From a phage, in the NCBI GenBank assembly GCA_036253035.1, contig GCA_036253035.1_4123.1: a DNA stretch of 64,000 bases. One strand, 5' to 3'. Position numbers and translations under genes: made by a program. The notes beneath the pieces were generated by a model, which ran no database searches, had not been told where the DNA came from, and worked only from the letters and a program-made list of their open reading frames with translations. Below, piece after piece: positions 649 to 49,105 of this stretch. Positions within the stretch are counted from its first letter, which is position 1. The number at the start of each line of letters is the position of its first letter.

Positions 649-676
649 AAAAAAGGCTGACCGAAGTCAACCTTTT
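649..676 (-). terminator. rho-independent terminator (GGUUGAC-UUCG-GUCAGCC hairpin + U tract)
   Basis: plus aaaaaaGGCTGACCGAAGTCAACC; on minus strand perfect stem with one G-U pair, UUCG tetraloop, followed by U run. Confidence 0.8.
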
Positions 677-679
677 CCT

Positions 680-1156
680 TTAATAGTTATTCATTTCATC
701 TTTGATTTGTTCTTCAATTTCATTCAACATATCTTTAACGTACTGTGGACATTCAACATCAGTAAACTTATACCACGTAGGCTTCATCTGGAGCTTCTCA
801 ATCAAACGGTCACGAGACATTTTAATCTCTGACTCCGTTGGTACGTAGTCATTACAAAACTCAGCAGGGAAGCCGCTAATGTCGTTTACTTCAGTGTTTT
901 GAATCTTCATACCACGACGCAGACATTCGTTGACAATATCAATATGACGCTTCTGTAAGTACAGTAACTTGTCGTAGAAAAATGTTACATGACCTGAACC
1001 TAACAGATAAGTACTGTTAATTTTGAAATCACGTACACGCTTACGTGCTTGAACGTGTTTTTGTACAGCACCAAATACACGTGGGAGTTCACGATATTCA
1101 GCCATCAGATGTTGGTCAGCAAGTTCTTTAACGTGTACTAAGTTAATGCGTGTCAT
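680..1156 (-). CDS. denV: endonuclease V, pyrimidine-dimer DNA glycosylase
   Basis: 158 aa; [32 protein letters not shown] closely matches T4 DenV as I recall it; RBS AGAGGA. Confidence 0.85.
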
Positions 1157-5423: not shown

Positions 5424-6065
5424 TCAATAAAAAACTGGATCTTCTTCAGTAACTGGTATTTCTCTACGTACATCACACGAAAGAGGATCAGTAATGAATA
5501 CATTGCCATCTTTATCCATCATGACATTACTGGAATGAATGTCTGGTACAAAACGCCCGTGAAACTCTTTCATGATGTTAGCAGCGACCGTCGCAATAGC
5601 AATCTCTTCAGAATTTCCACGCATATCATTCACTGAAGTAGCGTACTGACCAGCATGTGCATACGAATACAAATCACCAATTTTAGTACTAACAAAGTCA
5701 TCATAATTATTTTTTTGTTTAATTATAGGATAGTACTTGTCCATCTCATACCATCCAAAGTTTCCTTGTTCGTTGGCACTGTAGATCACTGGAAGAAACT
5801 TGGTTCCTGCGTTTTCAATGCAGTACTTTGCATAAGCACGAAAACCATCCCAGCGTGAAGTGGTTACTTTAAATGCACGTCCAGGATAGTTTTTATGTTC
5901 AACTACTACAGAGTACATCCCCATTCCAAGCAAAGTAAGTCCAGCAGCTTTAACTTGTGGAAAGATTACGCGTTCAGCATAAGGAATATCAAACTCCATC
6001 GCACAACGAGTTTTTGATGGACGCAAAATGTCAATTAAAGTTTTGAATATTTCTTGCTTAGTCAT
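5424..6065 (-). CDS. protein-kinase-like fold protein (putative Ser/Thr kinase)
   Basis: Gly-rich loop LGMGMYSVV, AFKV lysine motif, catalytic-loop-like DIHSSNVMMD, ITD; probable start ATG 6065 with AGGA RBS (track start 6098). Confidence 0.5.
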   Translation of the reverse strand: MTKQEIFKTLIDILRPSKTRCAMEFDIPYAERVIFPQVKAAGLTLLGMGMYSVVVEHKNYPGRAFKVTTSRWDGFRAYAKYCIENAGTKFLPVIYSANEQGNFGWYEMDKYYPIIKQKNNYDDFVSTKIGDLYSYAHAGQYATSVNDMRGNSEEIAIATVAANIMKEFHGRFVPDIHSSNVMMDKDGNVFITDPLSCDVRREIPVTEEDPVFY

Positions 6066-6101
6066 TACTTTATCCTCTGTAGTTAATATCAACATCATAA
6101 C

Positions 6102-6126
6102 AAAAAAGGCTGACCGAAGTCAACCC
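6102..6126 (-). terminator. rho-independent terminator, conserved UUCG hairpin
   Basis: aaaaaaGGCTGACCGAAGTCAACC. Confidence 0.8.
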
Positions 6127-6134
6127 TTTTATTA

Positions 6135-6554
6135 TCATTTACAGTTTTCTATAACTATTGCACGTTTTAGTATTTTACTTTCATAAACATACTTAAGATG
6201 ACCTTCTTCACGAATACGATTGAACACATATCCTAGTTTATCTTTTAGTACTGAAGCGGTATCAATGTCAAGATTAACTTCAACCCCTCCTGTTAATTTA
6301 ACTTTATATGTAAAGCTAAAAGCATCACCAGATTCAACCAATGGGACTACTTGTTCATACGTATTCAACATAACTCGTTCATCATTAACTAAATTATATA
6401 TTACAATATCACAAGTTTTTACCCCAATTTCCTCTAAGGTAGGAGCATTGTCTACTATAACATCTTTTACTGTATTAGCAACCTGTTTAGCATCTGCTGC
6501 ATATACATTAAAACTAAGAAGTACTAAAATAATACTTAAAAAAATCTTTTTCAT
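6135..6554 (-). CDS. secreted protein (signal peptide)
   Basis: 139 aa; MKKIFLSIILVLLSFNVYA|AD. Confidence 0.6.
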   Translation of the reverse strand: MKKIFLSIILVLLSFNVYAADAKQVANTVKDVIVDNAPTLEEIGVKTCDIVIYNLVNDERVMLNTYEQVVPLVESGDAFSFTYKVKLTGGVEVNLDIDTASVLKDKLGYVFNRIREEGHLKYVYESKILKRAIVIENCK

Positions 6555-6563
6555 TATATATCC

Positions 6564-6887
6564 TTATTTTATTTTACACGTCATATCGGGTTGTGCTGGT
6601 TTATTATTTTTAAAAGGATTAGGTTTTTTATCTTTCTTTTTATCTTTTAATGGTTTTTTGTCTTCTTTTTTATCTTTGTCTTTTTTATTGGTATCAGATT
6701 CAGTTGGAGTATTACATTGTGCTGGTGATGGGTTTGTTGGGTTACAGCTATTGTCTGGTGGGAGTTTTACTTCTTTACAATTGTAAAATAGTAAACTTTT
6801 ATTTGTGGTTAAATTATGAAAACGATAATTTATTTCATTATTATAATAAATTTTTTTAGTACTTTCAATGTCATTACACATTGCCAC
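6564..6887 (-). CDS. hypothetical Lys/Asp-rich low-complexity protein
   Basis: 107 aa, KDKDKKEDKKP repeats. Confidence 0.4.
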   Translation of the reverse strand: MAMCNDIESTKKIYYNNEINYRFHNLTTNKSLLFYNCKEVKLPPDNSCNPTNPSPAQCNTPTESDTNKKDKDKKEDKKPLKDKKKDKKPNPFKNNKPAQPDMTCKIK

Positions 6888-6891
6888 GGAA

Positions 6892-7143
6892 TCACCGAAA
6901 CTCTTTTTCTATTCCGAGTACATCCGTCTTACGCTCAGATAGTATACCTGAAGTATATGAATCTTTGTTGTCAAACGCATTAAATCCAATAGTTCTGTCG
7001 GTGTCGTGTATTATTCCTTTTGTGTATGAGGTAGTATAGAACTCCCCATTTCTGAAATCCTGCCTTGCTACGGAGCAATGATAATCTGCACCATAAGCAG
7101 TACTGGAAAATAATACAATTCCAAATATAATATATTTTTTCAT
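6892..7143 (-). CDS. secreted protein (signal peptide)
   Basis: 83 aa; MKKYIIFGIVLFSSTAYGA. Confidence 0.55.
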   Translation of the reverse strand: MKKYIIFGIVLFSSTAYGADYHCSVARQDFRNGEFYTTSYTKGIIHDTDRTIGFNAFDNKDSYTSGILSERKTDVLGIEKEFR

Positions 7144-7177
7144 TGTAATCCTCTTCTTAATTCCTCTTTTGTATTTA

Positions 7178-7202
7178 CAAAAAAAGGCTGACCGAAGTCA
7201 AC
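7178..7202 (-). terminator. rho-independent terminator, conserved UUCG hairpin
   Basis: aaaaaaaGGCTGACCGAAGTCAACC. Confidence 0.8.
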
Positions 7203-7213
7203 CTTTAGTTTTA

Positions 7214-8767
7214 TCATTTACCGTATTTGCTCATGATGTCCTTTTCCCAATGAGTTACGTTACCGTTATCGTAATCTTTAAAGGAATTATCAAGAGTAGT
7301 TAATGCATATTCGTATGCTTCAGGTGATTCAATGTCAACATCATCAGCACCATTTACTAAATCAGTCCATGCTTTTTGTAGTTTACGAGCATTTTTACCA
7401 ACATTACTTTTAATCCAACTAATGTTTTTGTTGATACTCTTATTATCAGCACCAGCTTTTTTACCAATATCGGATATCCACATCATTAGCTTTTGGAGTT
7501 CATGAATGGAGTTGTCGTTCATTTCACGATCTTTAGCCAATTCTGCTTCCATGCCATCAGTATCAGTACCATCTTTAGAACCTACATCAATTCCATGTTT
7601 AGCTAATAGTTTACCAAGTTCAAAGAATGCTGCCTCAGCAGGGAAGTCATAACCTTTGTCTTTGTAGTTGTTCCATGCACTATCAAACTCATCTACAAAT
7701 CGGTTGGCATAATCTGGATTGTCCACGAGAGCTTTGTACACTGCCATTGCATGTTCAAATCCTTCTTTGTCAGAACCAAACTCTCCCATTTCTGGACGAT
7801 GAATGTAACCATCCATATCAACAGTATCAGGTAAATCATCATGAGATGTTTCAGCATCTTTCTGGTCAACTGCACCTTCTTCATCATCACGCATCAGATA
7901 ACCATCTCGTGTAACCTTCTCACCGTGATCAGCTTCATACTTTTTCATAGTATTGAATGCAGCATCCATTGCAGTTACAAAACGACTCTTTTCACCTTGT
8001 ACATAAGATTTAAGTGCATCGTTAACTGCATCAGATACTAATTTAATCTTATCGTCTTTACCTTCCAGACGGTTTTCTAACTTAGCTAGTACATTCTTAA
8101 CTTGTTGAGCATTAGCACGGTCTTCTTTACCAATACTATCAAATGTTTTAAGTACGCTTTCAAGACTTACTTCCTCTTGTGCAGGCACATCACCTTGTTG
8201 CGTACCTTCAAGTGCACGCATTATAGTACTGAATACTTCAGTTGGTTCAGTACTGGTATTTCCACTCATTGCATCAAGTACAGCTTGTGCTTTGACTTTT
8301 AATTCTTCTTTAGGTACAGATTGCAATTCTTTCACAATACCTTGGATAAGTTGTGGTTTATTAGCAAAAATCTTACCTAACTTATCAGACAATTCTTTGA
8401 CAGGGTTAACCGCCTTTGGTGCTTCTTGTTTTGGTTCTTCTTTCGCAGGAGAAGACTTTTCTTTTTCTTCACGTTCCATATCAGCTAGGCGTTGTTTTTG
8501 TGTAGCATTAAGAAGTCCCAATGAATTAACATAACGTAGCTTTTCTAGCTCAGTCATGTTCTCAGTACTCTTAACTTCACCTGCTTCTGCGTTTGCTTTA
8601 CCAGCTAGACCAGTTCCTTGGTTACGTGATCCACGTGAACCTTGACCTGCTTGATAACTATTTGGTCGGCGGTTGCGTTCACTCCATTTATCCGAGTGAC
8701 CAGCCATGTTACCACCATTTTTATCAGTAAAATTACTTGGCATTTGATTTCTCTCCATAGATTTCAT
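7214..8767 (-). CDS. large hydrophilic protein, unknown function
   Basis: 517 aa, acidic/coiled; shares KYLxSLGLL motif with 9014..9397; TATAAATA-like motif about 25 nt upstream. Confidence 0.7.
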   Translation of the reverse strand: MKSMERNQMPSNFTDKNGGNMAGHSDKWSERNRRPNSYQAGQGSRGSRNQGTGLAGKANAEAGEVKSTENMTELEKLRYVNSLGLLNATQKQRLADMEREEKEKSSPAKEEPKQEAPKAVNPVKELSDKLGKIFANKPQLIQGIVKELQSVPKEELKVKAQAVLDAMSGNTSTEPTEVFSTIMRALEGTQQGDVPAQEEVSLESVLKTFDSIGKEDRANAQQVKNVLAKLENRLEGKDDKIKLVSDAVNDALKSYVQGEKSRFVTAMDAAFNTMKKYEADHGEKVTRDGYLMRDDEEGAVDQKDAETSHDDLPDTVDMDGYIHRPEMGEFGSDKEGFEHAMAVYKALVDNPDYANRFVDEFDSAWNNYKDKGYDFPAEAAFFELGKLLAKHGIDVGSKDGTDTDGMEAELAKDREMNDNSIHELQKLMMWISDIGKKAGADNKSINKNISWIKSNVGKNARKLQKAWTDLVNGADDVDIESPEAYEYALTTLDNSFKDYDNGNVTHWEKDIMSKYGK

Positions 8768-8798
8768 TTTTTTCTCTATGTCTATATTTATAGTATAA

Positions 8799-8822
8799 AG
8801 AAAAGGCTGACCGAAGTCAACC
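8799..8822 (-). terminator. rho-independent terminator, conserved UUCG hairpin
   Basis: gaaaaGGCTGACCGAAGTCAACC. Confidence 0.75.
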
Positions 8823-8830
8823 TTATTTTG

Positions 8831-8944
8831 TTACTTAGATTGTTCTTGTGCAGGTGGATTTACTTTTTGATCCACTACATAGAATACACCACCAACCAGT
8901 ACTGCGGCGATGAGTGCAGCAACTACAAATTTCAAACCTTGCAT
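8831..8944 (-). CDS. small membrane peptide (37 aa), not in ORF track
   Basis: MQGLKFVVAALIAAVLVGGVFYVVDQK..; RBS GAGGT; bracketed by two terminators. Confidence 0.45.
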   Translation of the reverse strand: MQGLKFVVAALIAAVLVGGVFYVVDQKVNPPAQEQSK

Positions 8945-8980
8945 ATATGATACCTCAGTTATATTGAGAAGTTATGATAC

Positions 8981-9006
8981 AACAAAGGGCTGACCTTAGT
9001 CAACCC
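8981..9006 (-). terminator. rho-independent terminator, variant of conserved hairpin
   Basis: GGGCTGACCTTAGTCAACCCC with flanking A/T runs. Confidence 0.7.
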
Positions 9007-9013
9007 CTTTTTA

Positions 9014-9397
9014 TTACTTCTTGAACTTATGTTTTTCACTTTCGATTGCATTCACGATTTCATCATGAATTTTACGAAGATTGTGAGTTTTCTTGAGAGA
9101 ATCATGCAATGCACGGAATGCAGAGTGTACTGTTGCTTTAAAGTGCTCTTTAGGAGTTACTTTAAGTTTCTCGATAATATCACGTACATAGATTGGGTGA
9201 TCCTCAAACACACGATTAAGCTCATGACCTAGTGATTCTAGGCTAAATGCTTTTTCACGGGATGGACGATCATGTGCAAGACTTTGGTCCGGTTTTAGAA
9301 GACCTAGTGAATCTAGATACTTGTGCTTATGTGCATTGTCTAGACCAGAAATATCAACATCATGTGATGGATCTTTCTTATTCCATTTATCAACCAT
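9014..9397 (-). CDS. hypothetical protein sharing N-terminal motif with 517-aa protein
   Basis: 127 aa; KYLDSLGLLKPDQ. Confidence 0.6.
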   Translation of the reverse strand: MVDKWNKKDPSHDVDISGLDNAHKHKYLDSLGLLKPDQSLAHDRPSREKAFSLESLGHELNRVFEDHPIYVRDIIEKLKVTPKEHFKATVHSAFRALHDSLKKTHNLRKIHDEIVNAIESEKHKFKK

Positions 9398-9475
9398 TTT
9401 TATAACTCCTATAAGAGATAAATTTTACTATAATATTTATAGTTCCGTTGTCATTTATATCGAATGACATAAAAC

Positions 9476-9503
9476 ATTATATCATAATAAGAATGGTTGT
9501 CCC
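9476..9503 (-). promoter_or_regulatory. promoter, extended -10 (TGaTATAAT) with weak -35
   Basis: minus GGGACA-16-TATAAT preceded by TG; upstream of 9014..9397. Confidence 0.4.
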
Positions 9504-9512
9504 AAAGTTAAA

Positions 9513-9956
9513 TTAGTACTGATCAAGTTCAGATGTAAAAATGAATGCATCCATGTCTTCCAACGTAAGTTTTAAGTCTGGTACATACTTAAGAATAACG
9601 CACTCTGGCTTCTTAATAGCAGCTTGATAAGCAGCAATGGCAAGGGATTCCAACTGCTGTGCTGTATAATTTTTACGTTCTGCATTAAAAACTTTGTTTT
9701 TGATATCACCACCTGGGAGTTTTTCAAACTCACGCATAACTGCGGCAAGAACATCGTCGGCAGTGTTACTATATACCCATTGGGGTAATTGCATTACATT
9801 ATAAATCACACCACTATCATCCATCAAAGAGATCCATTTATATCCATCACTCGCACTGAACAAACGCCCTTTTAGTACTGTATTATTGGTTAAATTTACA
9901 AATGCAAAAATATCTTGTTCGTTAAGTTCAATACTATTAACATTTACCCAACTCAT
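9513..9956 (-). CDS. hypothetical protein
   Basis: minus ORF 147 aa. Confidence 0.55.
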   Translation of the reverse strand: MSWVNVNSIELNEQDIFAFVNLTNNTVLKGRLFSASDGYKWISLMDDSGVIYNVMQLPQWVYSNTADDVLAAVMREFEKLPGGDIKNKVFNAERKNYTAQQLESLAIAAYQAAIKKPECVILKYVPDLKLTLEDMDAFIFTSELDQY

Positions 9957-9969
9957 TACGATTCCCTAT

Positions 9970-10566
9970 TCATAAATCACGAACAATATTCATTAAACAC
10001 AATTTAGGCTTTATAGCATTCAAAACCCATATGCACTCTTTGTAAGTAGCTATTATATCATCTAAATGCTCAGTCACAATACTTTCTTGAAAATATTCTT
10101 CATCATTGAGCTTTGCTAATTTAGTAACATCACATGTAGGTACTATAGGTCTGGATTGTACACCCATGCCATTATTAATATTAGTAAAATGTACAAAATT
10201 GTATTTCACTACACCTTTATCTAGATTTACTATACATGACAAGTTTTCCAACTCAGTTAGTTCTTTACTACAAGTAACATTAATGAAACCAGTATTATAG
10301 GCTCTATAATCATCTACTGATATCTCAAAATCATTACGCTGAAATATAAGTGAAATGAGTTTGTCCAGTGGTTTTACATTCATATATTTTAATGAATTTA
10401 CGTATGATACTTCAATCTTAGATGAAATTATTTTTTTACTAAGTGCAGTTAATTCTTTGTTAGATTTAACTGTTAAAACAATAGGTTTAAACCTAGAACT
10501 TTTGTTCTTTTTTGATACTTTAAAACGACCTTTACGATTCATAATTTCCTCAATTAATAATTTCAC
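9970..10566 (-). CDS. hypothetical protein
   Basis: minus ORF 198 aa. Confidence 0.6.
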   Translation of the reverse strand: MKLLIEEIMNRKGRFKVSKKNKSSRFKPIVLTVKSNKELTALSKKIISSKIEVSYVNSLKYMNVKPLDKLISLIFQRNDFEISVDDYRAYNTGFINVTCSKELTELENLSCIVNLDKGVVKYNFVHFTNINNGMGVQSRPIVPTCDVTKLAKLNDEEYFQESIVTEHLDDIIATYKECIWVLNAIKPKLCLMNIVRDL

Positions 10567-10771
10567 ATTTAACGTGTGGTTTATATAACATAATTAACCC
10601 ATTTTTAAGTACAATGATTGTTCCTCGGTCAGTAATAGAAACGTTTTTAATTATACTTTTTTTATATGTTTCAACATATTTCTCTTCGTAATTTATACAT
10701 TTAACATATTCTTTTTGTTTAGCACTTACAACAGTACTGAATAATATCAGTACAAGTACTATATATTTCAT
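10550..10771 (-). CDS. small secreted protein
   Basis: 73 aa; signal peptide MKYIVLVLILFSTVVSA. Confidence 0.5.
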   Translation of the reverse strand: MKYIVLVLILFSTVVSAKQKEYVKCINYEEKYVETYKKSIIKNVSITDRGTIIVLKNGLIMLYKPHVKCEIIN

Positions 10772-12224: not shown

Positions 12225-12248
12225 AAAAAAGGCTGACCGAAGTCAACC
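12225..12248 (-). terminator. rho-independent terminator, conserved UUCG hairpin
   Basis: aaaaaaGGCTGACCGAAGTCAACC; stop codon of 12243..12434 embedded in hairpin. Confidence 0.75.
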
Positions 12249-46572: not shown

Positions 46573-47013
46573 TTAATTGAACTCTACTTCTGGATAATGA
46601 TTATAGAACATCTCACGAACTGCGTCAAGATGTTCTTGAAATTGTTTTATATCTTCTAATGATGGTGCATCAATAACAGTACTAAGTTGAAACAACGATT
46701 CTTCTGTGTTATATAGTGACATATCAAATGAATTATTGTTGTCATCAGTTATGATATTATCACAAATTTCGTAAGTGTCAATACAAACATCATCAAGTGT
46801 TGTATTATCATATACAGTGTATACGAATACAAAAATAAAAGAAGAATGTTCTTTACCATAACGGGGTGGGTCATATGTCACATAGCATTTGTGGTCAAAT
46901 GTATCGAGTTCCATAGACACCACCCCAGCTTCACGATATTCATTAGTTTCACTGGTAAGATCCGGTATTGATGTTATCGAAAGTAAGTGGAGAAATTTAC
47001 TTGGATTTAGCAT
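46573..47013 (-). CDS. EExxFQxS-motif family protein
   Basis: 146 aa; TEESLFQLSTVIDAPSL. Confidence 0.6.
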   Translation of the reverse strand: MLNPSKFLHLLSITSIPDLTSETNEYREAGVVSMELDTFDHKCYVTYDPPRYGKEHSSFIFVFVYTVYDNTTLDDVCIDTYEICDNIITDDNNNSFDMSLYNTEESLFQLSTVIDAPSLEDIKQFQEHLDAVREMFYNHYPEVEFN

Positions 47014-47468
47014 TTCACCACCATTGGATTTTGCGACTGTATATTAAAAAGGGATAATACAAAAGTACTCAATTTTTCGAAACAATCTACTAATACATTT
47101 AACTCATCATAACTAACACCAATTTCACGAATAAGCGATTGTTGAAAGAATCCTTCTTCGGTTAACGTTAAACTACTAACCTCAGTTATGTTATAATAAC
47201 TTTGGGATGTTGTGGTTGATATTAGTTGTATTGCAATCGTATCTGATGTTGTGTTGTACAGATATAAATATTTTGTTTTTCTTTCCAATGGATCTATACA
47301 TGAAAGATCGATCATGTCATAGGTTTTTCCAATAAAAATATTACAATCATCTGACAATTCACAACAAATGCGTATATGTTCTTTCGGGTCATGAACACGT
47401 TGTGTGTCAAATTCACATGACATTGCAATTTCAAAATGATTTTTTATTTCGTCAACATTCATCTGCAC
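47007..47468 (-). CDS. EExxFQxS-motif family protein
   Basis: 153 aa; TEEGFFQQSLIREIG. Confidence 0.6.
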   Translation of the reverse strand: MQMNVDEIKNHFEIAMSCEFDTQRVHDPKEHIRICCELSDDCNIFIGKTYDMIDLSCIDPLERKTKYLYLYNTTSDTIAIQLISTTTSQSYYNITEVSSLTLTEEGFFQQSLIREIGVSYDELNVLVDCFEKLSTFVLSLFNIQSQNPMVVKC

Positions 47469-47836
47469 CCACCATTAATTCTTATATTTGTATAGTTTAA
47501 TGCTTTTTTAATAATACCAATTTCTGTAATTCCTATTACATTTTTCTCAATCAATGACAATTGGAATAGTTCCTCTTCGGAAATATCAATACTGTGGATT
47601 CTTGTACAATAATCGTTGAAGTCATATACATATCGTATTGTATAGTCGTTTATAGAAACTGATACAATTGCAATTCCATCATGGATGTAAGTTAGTTCAT
47701 TTGAGTATCTATTAAAAATTAACCTATCTGGTGAACCTATTGGTAGTTGAAATGTATTTCTAGTATCTTGAACAATAACAAAATCATCATCTATATTTCT
47801 ACTCAGAACACCCAAAATATCATATATAGTAGTCAT
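47459..47836 (-). CDS. EExxFQxS-motif family protein
   Basis: 125 aa; SEEELFQLSLIEKN. Confidence 0.6.
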   Translation of the reverse strand: MTTIYDILGVLSRNIDDDFVIVQDTRNTFQLPIGSPDRLIFNRYSNELTYIHDGIAIVSVSINDYTIRYVYDFNDYCTRIHSIDISEEELFQLSLIEKNVIGITEIGIIKKALNYTNIRINGGCR

Positions 47837-47837
47837 G

Positions 47838-48242
47838 TTATTCTTTACCTTCAGCAGTTCTGATAATTTTCATAACTTCTCTGGATAGTGCGTATATTTT
47901 TTTATAGTACTCAAATGTAACTGAACCAAAATCATTAATAGTACTAGCCATGAAGAACGATTCTTCTGTATATAGTTCATTTGACAAAGCAACCAGTTCT
48001 TGGTGAAATTTTGCGTCCTTCCAATAACGAAATTCAAAAACAAATTGTCCGTCATGACCGACTCTACAACATTCAGAACGATCACTGTCTACACAGCTAA
48101 ACACAATATCCCTTTCAGAGTCGTACCAGATATTTCCAATATTTGTTTCAATAACAGCATAATCAATTTTTTTAGAATTTGGAATTAAACCTTTTTTCAC
48201 CAGCACTAAACTGGTATTATCAATATCTAGTAAACTTACCAT
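47838..48242 (-). CDS. EExxFQxS-motif family protein
   Basis: 134 aa; TEESFFMASTINDFG. Confidence 0.6.
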   Translation of the reverse strand: MVSLLDIDNTSLVLVKKGLIPNSKKIDYAVIETNIGNIWYDSERDIVFSCVDSDRSECCRVGHDGQFVFEFRYWKDAKFHQELVALSNELYTEESFFMASTINDFGSVTFEYYKKIYALSREVMKIIRTAEGKE

Positions 48243-48243
48243 A

Positions 48244-48654
48244 TCAATTCCCCATTACTAAAGTGTTTTTAATCTCCAACAATTCACTATACATATTCTT
48301 CAATTGTAATATATCTTCAAAAGTAATACCACCAAGATCATCAACTAATGAACGTTGGAATAAAGATTCACTTGTTTGTAATGTATCTAAATCGGTGATT
48401 TTTAATAAAGAACTTGGATTAAGTGTTTCGACTAGTAGTATGTTTTTGTATGGTACATATGTGATCTTGATGTTCTTTTTATAATTAATCTTATAAAATC
48501 GCATAATTGACGATTCATCACTTAGTTGGATAATTGGGTCGTCTTGTTCATTAGACCACCATACAGTACTAGTCATATGATTGACGTGGTGGTTCAATTC
48601 TGATATATCCAAATCTAAAAAATATTTTAGTTCATTGTGTAAATCTAAACTCAT
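48244..48654 (-). CDS. EExxFQxS-motif family protein
   Basis: 136 aa; TSESLFQRSLVDDLGGIT. Confidence 0.6.
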   Translation of the reverse strand: MSLDLHNELKYFLDLDISELNHHVNHMTSTVWWSNEQDDPIIQLSDESSIMRFYKINYKKNIKITYVPYKNILLVETLNPSSLLKITDLDTLQTSESLFQRSLVDDLGGITFEDILQLKNMYSELLEIKNTLVMGN

Positions 48655-48709
48655 AAATTTATCCTCAATGCAGCATCATCATGTATTGTAGGATAAACCC
48701 ACAATAATG

Positions 48710-49105
48710 TCAAGATGTGAAATAATTATACCAGTAATATAGTTCTTTTAATTCTTCAGTACTGAACAATACTTCTTCTATTGTAGATTGTTGAAAGTGA
48801 TATTCATCATTTAGATACATAGAAATATTACTATATACTTTCCTATTGTATTGACATAAAAAAGAAGTTTTTTGATTAATGTATTCAGTAAATGTTAATT
48901 TATCTAACTCAATATCGAATGATAATTTAATAATATGACTATTATCATTTACATACATTAGTTTCTTTGAAAAATGATCAATTGTAATATATTCTTTATG
49001 AGAGAACTGAAATATATTATTAAATTTATTACCATTTGTGCTTCTAAATTTTTCAAGGTAATAAGAAAGTGGTTTAATTATTGAAGTTCCAATATTGTTC
49101 TTCAT
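48710..49105 (-). CDS. EExxFQxS-motif family protein
   Basis: 131 aa; NDEYHFQQSTIEEV. Confidence 0.55.
   Translation of the reverse strand: MKNNIGTSIIKPLSYYLEKFRSTNGNKFNNIFQFSHKEYITIDHFSKKLMYVNDNSHIIKLSFDIELDKLTFTEYINQKTSFLCQYNRKVYSNISMYLNDEYHFQQSTIEEVLFSTEELKELYYWYNYFTS

What the first reader, a model, noticed from the sequence alone, without database searches (positions are those of the whole stretch)
7214..9397. Two hydrophilic proteins sharing a SLGLL motif
The 517-aa and 127-aa proteins share KYL(D/N)SLGLL near their N-termini, and the larger is preceded by a TATAAATA-like motif. One possibility is a pair of injected virion-internal proteins, analogous in location to T4 internal proteins near denV.
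Basis: inference. Interest (0 to 1): 0.4.

Follow-up and report, generated by a model that had tools for sequence, protein, structure and literature searches.

The report
Paralogous late virion proteins, jumbo phage
These two genes of a 121Q/PBECO4-like jumbo coliphage are diverged copies of one gene, both carry the same late promoter as the capsid gene, and their near-identical counterparts are already known from mass spectrometry to be in the virus particle; whether they sit inside the head and are injected is plausible but untested.

Summary
Both ORFs exist, at 7214-8767(-) and 9014-9397(-). They share (K/R)Y(L/V)(D/N)SLGLL as part of real homology, not a chance pentapeptide. The window is not T4. 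It is an Asteriusvirus, a Rak2-like jumbo myovirus, 98% identical to phage slurp01.

The genes are orthologs of 121Q gp201/gp199 and phAPEC6 gp035c/gp037c. Both were detected in purified virions by MS in phAPEC6 and JP4, and the single-copy ortholog was detected in CBB.

New here:
- An exact TATAAATA precedes both genes. These are the only two sense-strand copies in 64 kb.
- The same motif sits 17-48 nt before the capsid, scaffold and other late genes of phAPEC6, which encodes a gp55-like sigma factor.
- The family is narrow, with 37 clusters in 1.8 billion proteins. Its one constant element is an amphipathic helix, ...EKLKYFxSLGLL, flanked by disorder.
- The large paralog carries recombining C-terminal helical modules and is depleted in (L/I)xE, the T4-type prohead-protease site.

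Head-internal or injected status remains inferred (about 0.4). There is no T4-like CTS and no homology to T4 or phiKZ internal proteins.

The parts
7214..8743 (-). Large paralog CDS. It is 509 aa from the probable start at ATG 8743; the ORF's first ATG is at 8767, giving 517 aa. Ortholog of 121Q gp201 and phAPEC6 gp035c.
   Evidence: ORF. GGAGAG Shine-Dalgarno 7 nt before ATG 8743. All homologs start MPxxF. phrog_20398 at 3.9e-218. Orthologs annotated as virion structural. MS detection reported in PMC7247149 and PMC12648861.
8564..8743 (-). Codes aa 1-60 of the large paralog: a basic (pI 10.2), Gly/Ser/Arg/Asn-rich region predicted to be disordered (GHSDKW...NRR...GQGSRGSRNQGTG).
   Evidence: AF2 pLDDT 41-52. 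pI. The region is conserved but exists as at least two recombining allelic types.
8510..8542 (-). Codes KLRYVNSLGLL, the family-defining amphipathic helix in the large paralog.
   Evidence: Motif scan. K68, Y71, L75 and G76 are invariant across 44 and 29 sequences. Predicted helix 65-74 with pLDDT above 80, flanked by disorder.
8204..8407 (-). Codes aa 113-180 of the large paralog: a conserved four-helix domain homologous to the C-terminal domain of the small paralog.
   Evidence: BLASTP alignment. AF2 helices 114-178. It is the most conserved module, 57-100% identical across the family.
7217..8173 (-). Codes aa 191-509 of the large paralog: three all-helical modules joined by disordered linkers. 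The modules are mosaic and recombine between closely related phages.
   Evidence: AF2 model, pTM 0.29 with good domain pLDDT. Per-module identity table and the 88-aa indel.
8785..8792 (-). TATAAATA, the predicted gp55-type late promoter of the large paralog.
   Evidence: Exact match, one of only 3 in the window against 12.2 expected. The same motif lies 46-48 nt before the MCP and scaffold genes of phAPEC6.
8792..8820 (-). Sigma-70-like promoter TTGACT-17-TATACT. It overlaps the preceding terminator stem and abuts the TATAAATA.
   Evidence: Consensus scan, 10 of 12 positions. Function not shown.
7183..7206 (-). Intrinsic terminator after the large paralog.
   Evidence: Terminator scan. Hairpin of -15.2 kcal/mol, z=-4.1, followed by a U-run.
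9014..9397 (-). Small paralog CDS, 127 aa, pI 9.05. Ortholog of 121Q gp199 and phAPEC6 gp037c. It is an N-terminally deleted derivative of the ~170-aa ancestral form.
   Evidence: ORF. phrog_16530 at 6.2e-56, matching only profile positions 50-168. Alignment with P0078 and CBB_38. MS detection.
9296..9328 (-). Codes KHKYLDSLGLL, the family motif in the small paralog.
   Evidence: Motif scan. Alignment.
9020..9241 (-). Codes aa 53-126 of the small paralog: a four-helix bundle.
   Evidence: AF2 pLDDT 82-89, helices 53-63, 68-79, 83-103 and 107-126.
9434..9441 (-). TATAAATA, the predicted late promoter of the small paralog, 36 nt before the ATG.
   Evidence: The identical arrangement is present in phAPEC6.
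8984..9009 (-). Intrinsic terminator after the small paralog.
   Evidence: Hairpin of -18.3 kcal/mol, z=-4.8. Variant of the repeated GGTTGACTNNGGTCAGCC hairpin.

Best explanation
SHOWN, by sequence and published MS on orthologs (about 0.9 for these points).
The two genes are paralogs of a small protein family restricted to Rak2-like jumbo myoviruses (PHROGs 20398 and 16530). Each is its own transcription unit: a late promoter (TATAAATA, read by the phage's gp55-like sigma factor), the gene, then an intrinsic terminator. Both products end up in the mature virion as minor components.

The ancestral form is a protein of about 160-175 aa that is basic and very hydrophilic. It consists of a disordered basic N-terminus, an amphipathic helix ...DTSKMxPEEKLKYFxSLGLL at about residue 68, a Pro/Glu/Lys-rich linker and a four-helix bundle. 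In this phage, one copy lost most of the N-terminal disordered region (127 aa). The other gained about 320 aa of interchangeable helical modules (509 aa).

INFERRED (about 0.4).
The proteins are head-internal, core or ejection-type proteins. The SLGLL helix, the only element present in every architecture of the family, acts as a docking peptide. It recruits them to a partner in the T4-like prohead, such as the scaffold core, the inner shell surface or the portal. The basic regions contact packaged DNA. The variable C-terminal modules of the large paralog are cargo delivered with the DNA. These proteins could be part of the unassigned inner body seen in 121Q and phAPEC6 heads.
For: Paralogy.

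Identity of the phage and the orthologs.

Virion presence:
- phAPEC6 Table 1.
- JP4 supplementary table.
- CBB Table 4.

Late promoter:
- The only two sense-strand TATAAATA copies in 64 kb precede these genes.
- In phAPEC6, the first 50 kb has only these two copies.
- In the phAPEC6 head and baseplate region, all 6 copies are intergenic, sense and 17-48 nt before gene starts, including the MCP and scaffold genes.
- ATAAATA lies upstream of 10 of 25 MS-positive genes but only 6 of 89 other genes.
- The phage encodes a gp55-family sigma factor (phrog_234, 8.4e-18).
- The CBB paper reports ATAAATA before structural genes.

Terminators.

Evidence for an internal location:
- The phage has a T4 gp21-family protease and a Gp23-family MCP.
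- Its scaffold carries 24 (L/I)xE sites against 6.9 expected. The large paralog has 1 against 4.6, and divergent homologs have 0-2 against 4-6. The proteome background ratio is 1.0-1.3.
- The proteins are all-helical, disorder-rich and hydrophilic, with no beta-rich fibre, tube or decoration-like fold.
- Short family members are small and basic, pI 8.7-9.6.
- The motif is constant across architectures, while either the N-terminal disordered region or the helix bundle can be absent.
- The C-terminal modules recombine among near-identical phages.
- 121Q and phAPEC6 heads contain a radiation-sensitive inner body whose proteins are unidentified.
Against: - No localisation or injection data exist for any family member.
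- There is no cleavable N-terminal CTS. No (L/I)xE is conserved near the N-terminus. The only invariant candidate site, NPVKE|LSD, is V-x-E, and the Glu is absent from the short orthologs.
- CBB_38's 56.6% coverage implies that much of the N-half is retained in the virion.
- JP4 label-free intensities are low: 1.6e6 and 5.1e6 against 1.2e8 for the tail sheath. They are similar to the residual prohead protease. This argues against hundreds of copies and so against a major inner-body role.
- The small paralog's family is not depleted in (L/I)xE.
- The depletion statistics come from homologous, non-independent sequences.
- Orthologs in CBB, GAP32 and BF carry a consensus TTGACA-18-TATAAT promoter instead of TATAAATA. 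Sigma-70-like promoters also precede both genes here, so expression may not be purely late.
Confidence: 0.45

Rival explanations
1. The proteins are minor external or tail, neck or 'hair'-associated virion components. They might act as adaptors for the unusual hairy fibres on the capsid and sheath of these phages. On this reading the SLGLL helix docks onto an outer structural protein.
For: MS shows only that they are in the virion, not where. phAPEC6 and CBB virions carry many unassigned appendages (CBB abstract). Low copy number in JP4 fits an accessory role. No protease processing is evident.
Against: The genes lie far from the tail, baseplate and fibre clusters, inside a block of small non-structural genes. 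The folds are all-helical and disorder-rich, unlike typical fibre, decoration or tube proteins. The (L/I)xE depletion in the large paralog has no obvious reason if the protein never meets the prohead protease.
Confidence: 0.3
2. The proteins are DNA-associated and are co-packaged passively with the genome. They are basic, disordered, nucleoid-type binders, not recruited into the prohead through a docking motif.
For: The N-terminal region is basic and RG/SR-rich, and the short family members are basic. Possible early plus late expression. Low abundance.
Against: The small paralog lacks the basic GSRGSRNQGTG segment yet is still found in virions with good coverage. The large paralog is acidic overall, pI 4.98. 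The strict conservation of a hydrophobic-faced helix points to protein-protein docking.
Confidence: 0.12
3. The proteins are assembly or scaffold-like factors that normally leave the particle. MS then detects only trapped remnants.
For: Helical, coiled-coil-like composition. phAPEC6 gp035c was auto-annotated as an SMC-like protein. The scaffold and protease are also detected at low level in virions.
Against: The true scaffold is packed with (L/I)xE sites for removal, whereas these proteins avoid them. Coverage of 29-57% in three independent studies across two genera is high for a remnant. The hypervariable C-terminus is atypical for a scaffold.
Confidence: 0.08

Closest known systems
121Q gp201/gp199, phAPEC6 gp035c/gp037c and JP4_543/JP4_541 (PHROG 20398 and 16530, 'virion structural protein' of Rak2-like jumbo phages)
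   Same: These are direct orthologs. The small protein is 99-100% identical. The large protein's N-terminal 184 aa are 87-99% identical. Gene order, promoter and terminators are the same. Virion presence was shown by MS.
   Different: The window's large paralog is the long (509 aa) allele. It has an 88-aa module that phAPEC6 and JP4 (417 aa) lack, and its C-terminal domain is only about 73% identical. No function or virion location has been published for any member.
T4 internal proteins IPI/IPII/IPIII and the CTS system
   Same: What it works like (inferred): small, basic, hydrophilic, non-essential-looking virion proteins. They are encoded outside the head gene cluster near denV (the T4 ipII/ipIII-denV adjacency is from my own knowledge). 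They have their own late promoter, sit in a phage with gp21-type protease, gp22-like scaffold and gp23-type MCP, and combine a conserved targeting element with variable 'cargo' between related phages (PMC9026906).
   Different: There is no sequence homology. There is no 10-19-aa N-terminal CTS and no (L/I)xE processing site after it. The conserved element is internal (residue ~68) and apparently retained. Copy number looks low rather than about 300 per head. Ejection has not been shown.
phiKZ-type inner-body proteins
   Same: 121Q and phAPEC6 show a phiKZ-like bubblegram inner body whose proteins are unknown. The genes studied here are clustered paralogous virion proteins of unknown fold.
   Different: The phAPEC6 authors report no similarity of any phAPEC6 protein to phiKZ IB proteins. 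Only two PHROG families are hit here. The apparent abundance is too low for a 91 x 18 nm body.
Encapsulin cargo-loading peptides (lead from memory, not tested)
   Same: A short hydrophobic-faced peptide rich in S/L/G, flanked by flexible linkers, tethers diverse cargo to the inside of an HK97-fold shell.
   Different: These peptides are usually C-terminal and have a different consensus.

Membership tests
PHROG 20398 / 16530 virion structural proteins of Rak2-like jumbo phages | Significant full-length match to the family profiles | tested here: met
   Large protein: phrog_20398 at 3.9e-218, with its N-terminal 180 aa also matching phrog_16530 at 6.6e-38. Small protein: phrog_16530 at 6.2e-56.
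PHROG 20398 / 16530 virion structural proteins of Rak2-like jumbo phages | Physical presence in purified virions | not testable with these tools
   Not testable for this isolate. Published MS is positive for orthologs in phAPEC6, JP4 and CBB.
T4-type late genes (gp55-dependent TATAAATA promoters) | TATAAATA box a few tens of nt upstream of the start codon, on the sense strand | tested here: met
   8785-8792(-) and 9434-9441(-). The spacing of 36-42 nt compares with 46-48 nt for the MCP and scaffold genes in phAPEC6.
T4-type late genes (gp55-dependent TATAAATA promoters) | The phage encodes a gp55-family late sigma factor | tested here: met
   phAPEC6 gp237c matches phrog_234 'late sigma transcription factor' at 8.4e-18. 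It has no Pfam hit. The gene lies outside this window. gp33 and gp45 homologs were reported absent in CBB.
T4-type late genes (gp55-dependent TATAAATA promoters) | Late-only transcript initiating just downstream of the box | not testable with these tools
   No transcriptome of an Asteriusvirus was found. Overlapping sigma-70-like promoters exist.
T4 internal proteins (CTS-bearing IPs) | N-terminal 10-19-residue capsid-targeting sequence ending in an (L/I)xE site cut by gp21 | tested here: not met
   The N-termini are MPSNFTDKNGG... and MVDKWNKKD.... There is no (L/I)xE in the first 110 residues of the large protein or the first 60 of the small one. Definition taken from PMC9026906.
T4 internal proteins (CTS-bearing IPs) | Sequence homology to IPI, IPII or IPIII | tested here: not met
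   Only PHROGs 20398 and 16530 are hit at E<=0.01. There are no Pfam or NCBIfam hits.
T4 internal proteins (CTS-bearing IPs) | Small basic protein in a phage with gp21 protease, gp22-like scaffold and gp23 MCP | tested here: met
   The small paralog has pI 9.05 and short orthologs have pI 8.7-9.6, but the large paralog is acidic at pI 4.98. Peptidase_S77 at 9.9e-21 and Gp23 at 1.3e-89.
T4 internal proteins (CTS-bearing IPs) | Located inside the head at hundreds of copies and ejected into the host | not testable with these tools
   There are no localisation or injection data. JP4 label-free intensities suggest low copy number.
phiKZ-type inner-body proteins | Homology to phiKZ gp89/90/93/95/97/162 families | tested here: not met
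   The PHROG scan hits only the two Rak2-like families. The phAPEC6 authors found no similarity of any phAPEC6 protein to phiKZ IB proteins.
phiKZ-type inner-body proteins | Abundant (100-200 copies) head protein processed at S/A/G-x-E | tested here: inconclusive
   Several S/A/G-x-E sites exist, but no peptide-level MS is available. Abundance appears low.

The most novel reading that the evidence does not exclude
The ...EKLKYFxSLGLL helix is a new, uncleaved, internally placed capsid-targeting (cargo-loading) peptide for T4-lineage jumbo heads. The family it defines supplies components of the so far unassigned inner body or ejected protein set of 121Q-like phages. The freely recombining C-terminal modules of the large paralog are injected host-takeover or anti-defence effectors.
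Probability: 0.18. Interest if true: 0.6.

Novelty: new member of a known kind. Interest (0 to 1): 0.3.

Why it matters
Taken at face value this is ordinary. The genes are already annotated as virion structural proteins, and mass spectrometry on sister phages supports that.

The added value is modest but concrete:
- It ties both genes to the same TATAAATA late promoter that drives the capsid genes of Asteriusviruses.
- It shows that the two 'families' are one, and defines the family by a single docking-type helix.
- It nominates the family as a candidate for the unidentified internal (inner-body or ejection) proteins of 121Q-like jumbo phages.

If the helix proves to be a portable head-targeting tag, it would be a tool for packaging foreign proteins into jumbo phage heads. 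It would also be a second, mechanistically different solution to the problem that T4 solves with its CTS.

Tried and rejected
1. Function by homology or fold. None of these gave anything useful:
- Pfam and NCBIfam gave nothing significant.
- The PDB sequence search gave nothing.
- Foldseek against PDB for the large model gave nothing below E=0.75.
- BFVD returned only family members.
- The phAPEC6 'SMC/chromosome segregation' label reflects coiled-coil-like composition and is not supported.

2. A prohead-protease site at the invariant NPVKE|LSD. I rejected this as a family feature. It is V-x-E rather than (L/I)-x-E, and the Glu is missing in the small paralog's aligned position (SLE|S) and in CBB, BF, GAP32 and Munch.

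3. Peptide-level MS to test N-terminal processing. The phAPEC6 supplement is not held. The JP4 table lists proteins only. CBB coverage suggests only that the N-half is retained.

4. A shared module with the tape-measure-like virion protein gp231c (GNRGSR...VVNSLGM). The pairwise E-value is 0.13, and the NSLG string is not conserved in RaK2, BF, CBB or Munch orthologs. I rejected it as chance or low complexity.

5. Further paralogs in the same genome. tblastn finds one place per genome for each query. No other ORF in the window carries the motif.

6. An Asteriusvirus transcriptome or localisation study. None was found in the library.

7. JP4 GenBank locus tags do not match the paper's numbering, so the proteins were found by sequence string instead.
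Full report
**1. What is there**

The window is a piece of an Asteriusvirus, a 121Q/PBECO4-like Rak2-type jumbo myovirus of E. coli. Region 6000-10600 is 98.3% identical to phage slurp01 and 93-98% identical to SHEFM2K, G17, Sharanji, PBECO4 and 121Q. It is not T4.

Both ORFs named in the finding exist on the minus strand: 7214-8767 (517 aa) and 9014-9397 (127 aa).

The large ORF most likely starts at its ninth codon, ATG 8743, giving 509 aa. Two observations support this:
- A GGAGAG Shine-Dalgarno sits 7 nt upstream of that ATG.
- Every homolog begins MPxxF at that position.

The genes correspond to 121Q gp201/gp199 and phAPEC6 gp035c/gp037c. A 38-aa transmembrane ORF lies between them (121Q gp200).

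**2. The shared motif is homology**

The small protein reads KHKYLDSLGLL. The large one reads KLRYVNSLGLL.

- Pairwise BLASTP extends the similarity over about 115 residues (E=2e-8).
- The large protein's residues 9-188 match the small protein's PHROG family at 6.6e-38.
- Outside Asteriusvirus, related phages (CBB, GAP32, Serratia BF, Yersinia fHe-Yen9-04, Erwinia Eneladusviruses) have a single protein of about 155-175 aa. It has the full layout: a basic disordered N-terminus, the motif at residue ~68, a Pro/Glu/Lys linker and a helical domain.
- A 171-aa metagenomic member (P0078) links the two window proteins.

The window's small protein is therefore a derivative that lost about 45 N-terminal residues, including GSRGSRNQGTG. 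The large one gained about 320 C-terminal residues.

An exhaustive profile search of 1.84 billion representatives found only 37 clusters, so the family is narrow. Its architectures vary:
- N-terminal region plus motif only.
- Motif at the extreme N-terminus plus the helical domain.
- The full form, with or without diverse C-terminal modules.

The one constant is ...DTSKMxPEEKLKYFxSLGLL. K68, Y71, L75 and G76 are invariant.

**3. Structure and composition**

AlphaFold models built on family alignments give the following.
- Small protein: residues 1-50 are disordered, with a weak helix over the motif. A four-helix bundle at 53-126 has pLDDT 82-89.
- Large protein: residues 1-56 are disordered. 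A confident helix covers the motif (65-74) and a second covers 80-96. A disordered linker follows, then the homologous four-helix domain (114-178). Three further all-helical domains are joined by disordered linkers. The pTM of 0.29 indicates beads on a string.

Both proteins are very hydrophilic (GRAVY -0.9) and Cys-free. The small one is basic (pI 9.05). The large one is acidic (pI 4.98) but has a basic first 60 residues (pI 10.2). Short orthologs are consistently basic, pI 8.7-9.6.

No fold, family or solved-structure match is informative.

**4. Virion association is already published**

| Phage | Protein | MS result | Source |
|---|---|---|---|
| phAPEC6 | gp035c | 8 unique peptides, 28.8% coverage | PMC7247149 Table 1, |
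| phAPEC6 | gp037c | 5 unique peptides, 48.0% coverage | PMC7247149 Table 1, |
| JP4 | JP4_541 (127 aa) | 4 peptides, 29% coverage | PMC12648861 suppl. 2, |
| JP4 | JP4_543 (417-aa allele) | 2 peptides, 5% coverage | PMC12648861 suppl. 2, |
| CBB | CBB_38 (single-copy ortholog) | 9 peptides, 56.6% coverage | PMC5259590 Table 4, |

121Q, PBECO4 and BF records annotate the orthologs as structural.

JP4 label-free intensities are 1.6e6 for the large protein and 5.1e6 for the small one. That is close to the residual prohead protease (3.8e6) and about 25-75 times below the tail sheath (1.2e8). This suggests minor components, although such intensities are only a rough guide.

**5. Late promoter**

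TATAAATA occurs three times in the 64-kb window against 12.2 expected.
- Two copies are on the coding strand, 36 nt before the small gene and 42 nt before the large gene (18 nt before the first ATG).
- The third copy is antisense inside an ORF.
- By my arithmetic, two of three random hits landing within 50 nt upstream of these two genes has a probability of order 1e-6.

In phAPEC6:
- The first 50 kb contains only these same two copies.
- In the 50 kb that holds the head and baseplate genes, all six copies are intergenic, sense-oriented and 17-48 nt before gene starts. These genes include the major capsid protein (46 nt), the scaffold (48 nt), endonuclease VII and the first gene of a virion-protein operon.
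- ATAAATA lies within 100 nt upstream of 10 of 25 MS-positive genes but only 6 of 89 others. Most of those six sit in late clusters.
- The phage encodes a gp55-family late sigma factor.

The CBB paper independently reported ATAAATA before the structural genes of CBB and GAP32.

Each gene is followed by a strong hairpin terminator, so each is a monocistronic late unit embedded in a block of small non-structural genes.

One caveat applies. Sigma-70-like promoters overlap both upstream regions. The CBB, GAP32 and BF orthologs carry a consensus TTGACA-18-TATAAT instead of TATAAATA. Additional early expression therefore cannot be excluded, and no transcriptome exists.

**6. Where in the virion?**

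This is inferred, not shown.

Points in favour of a head-internal, core or ejection-type role:
- The phage builds its head the T4 way, with a Peptidase_S77 (gp21-family) protease and a Gp23-family MCP. Its scaffold is saturated with (L/I)xE sites, 24 against 6.9 expected.
- The large paralog has 1 such site against 4.6 expected (P about 0.04). Divergent homologs have 0-2 against 4-6, while the proteome background ratio is 1.0-1.3. This is what selection against cleavage inside a prohead would produce. The homologs are not statistically independent, however.
- The fold is all-helical, disorder-rich and hydrophilic.
- The short members are small and basic.
- The docking-type helix is the sole constant element. 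The small paralog lacks the basic N-terminus yet is still packaged, so the motif plus helical domain are the common denominator.
- The C-terminal modules recombine independently among phages that are otherwise 96% identical. This resembles host-interacting cargo and the T-even IP locus (PMC9026906).
- 121Q and phAPEC6 heads contain a bubblegram-visible inner body with no assigned proteins.

Points against:
- There is no cleavable CTS and no conserved protease site.
- CBB coverage implies that the N-half is retained.
- Apparent copy number is low.
- The small family is not depleted in (L/I)xE.
- There is no direct localisation.

I put the internal reading at about 0.4, an external or tail-associated accessory role at about 0.3, passive co-packaging with DNA at about 0.12, and a trapped assembly factor at about 0.08.

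**7. Comparison with known systems**

The genes are members of the Rak2-like virion-protein family (PHROG 20398/16530).

They are not members of the T4 IP family. The defining CTS and sequence homology were tested and not met. They may nonetheless work like T4 internal proteins.

They are not homologs of phiKZ inner-body proteins.

The 'near denV' remark is loosely true. A Pyr_excise gene lies at 680-1156(-), about 6 kb away. It carries no mechanistic weight.

**8. Verdict**

Virion presence and the late promoter hold. The internal or injected status is untested, and the T4 analogy is functional at best.
- The finding is mostly already explained by existing annotation and proteomics.
- The residual interest is the docking-helix hypothesis and a possible link to the unassigned inner body. 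Interest 0.3.

Noticed in passing
window 655-672, 1199-1216, 6108-6125, 7186-7203, 8805-8822, 8988-9005, 12231-12248 (all minus strand): Seven copies of an almost invariant terminator hairpin, GGTTGACTTCGGTCAGCC, against 0.01 expected by chance. The stem contains a TTGACT -35-like hexamer, and in several cases a -10-like hexamer follows 17-18 nt later. These appear to be compact terminator-promoter cassettes punctuating this gene block. CBB, GAP32 and BF use a different hairpin (AATCCCCTAAAT...ATTAGGGGATT) that overlaps TTGACA-18-TATAAT in the same way.
   Followed up: partly
window-wide; motif copies at 8785-8792(-), 9434-9441(-), 47263-47270(+): TATAAATA is about four-fold depleted in the window, 3 copies against 12.2 expected; all 100 shuffles had at least 3. 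This fits selection against spurious late promoters in a non-structural gene block.
   Followed up: yes
window 8832-8945 (-): A 38-aa ORF (MQGLKFVVAALIAAVLVGGVFYVVDQKVNPPAQEQSK) with one predicted transmembrane helix sits between the two paralogs. It has its own sigma-70-like promoter and terminator and corresponds to 121Q gp200. It has no TATAAATA.
   Followed up: no
window 5424-6098 (-): A T7 gp0.7-like protein kinase (phrog_15752, 2.7e-98) lies just downstream of the pair. A kinase is also near the positional ortholog in Salmonella phage Munch (CPT_Munch_046).
   Followed up: partly
window 680-1156 (-): A denV-like pyrimidine-dimer DNA glycosylase (Pfam Pyr_excise, 8.6e-15), about 6 kb from the large paralog.
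   Followed up: yes
window 46573-49105 (-): A tandem array of at least five or six paralogous ORFs of about 125-153 aa. They share a C-terminal motif such as TEE(S/G)(L/F)FQ(Q/L)S(L/T)(I/V), for example SEEELFQLSLIEKNV, TSESLFQRSLVDDLG and TEESLFQLSTVIDAP. Function unknown.
   Followed up: no
window 6135-6554 (-), 6892-7143 (-), 10550-10771 (-): Three small ORFs flanking the pair begin with signal-peptide-like sequences (MKKIFLSIILVLLSFNVYA, MKKYIIFGIVLFSSTAYG, MKYIVLVLILFSTVVSA). They are probably secreted or periplasmic phage proteins.
   Followed up: no
window 6564-6887 (-): A 107-aa ORF with a GTG start and an extremely Lys/Asp-rich C-terminal half (KKDKDKKEDKKPLKDKKKDKKPNPFKNNKP). It has no PHROG match and corresponds to 121Q gp203.
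   Followed up: no
L013 (phAPEC6 135001-185000): 7389-8504(-) and 9215-10063(-): The scaffold gp226c carries 24 (L/I)xE sites against 6.9 expected, a very clear signature of T4-style scaffold shredding. The neighbouring gp228c is a hyper-acidic (pI ~4.2) virion protein reminiscent of T4 gp67/gp68-type core proteins.
   Followed up: partly
window 8564-8743 (-) and homologs P0006, P0009, P0031, P0036: The disordered N-terminal 60 residues of the large paralog exist as at least two allelic types, MPSNFTDKNGGNMAGHSDKW... and MPSDYNNGDMKHRNGAIVQHSKRK.... They are exchanged independently of the rest of the gene: P0006 is 39% identical in the first 60 residues but 100% identical from the four-helix domain (residue 113) onward.
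   Followed up: partly
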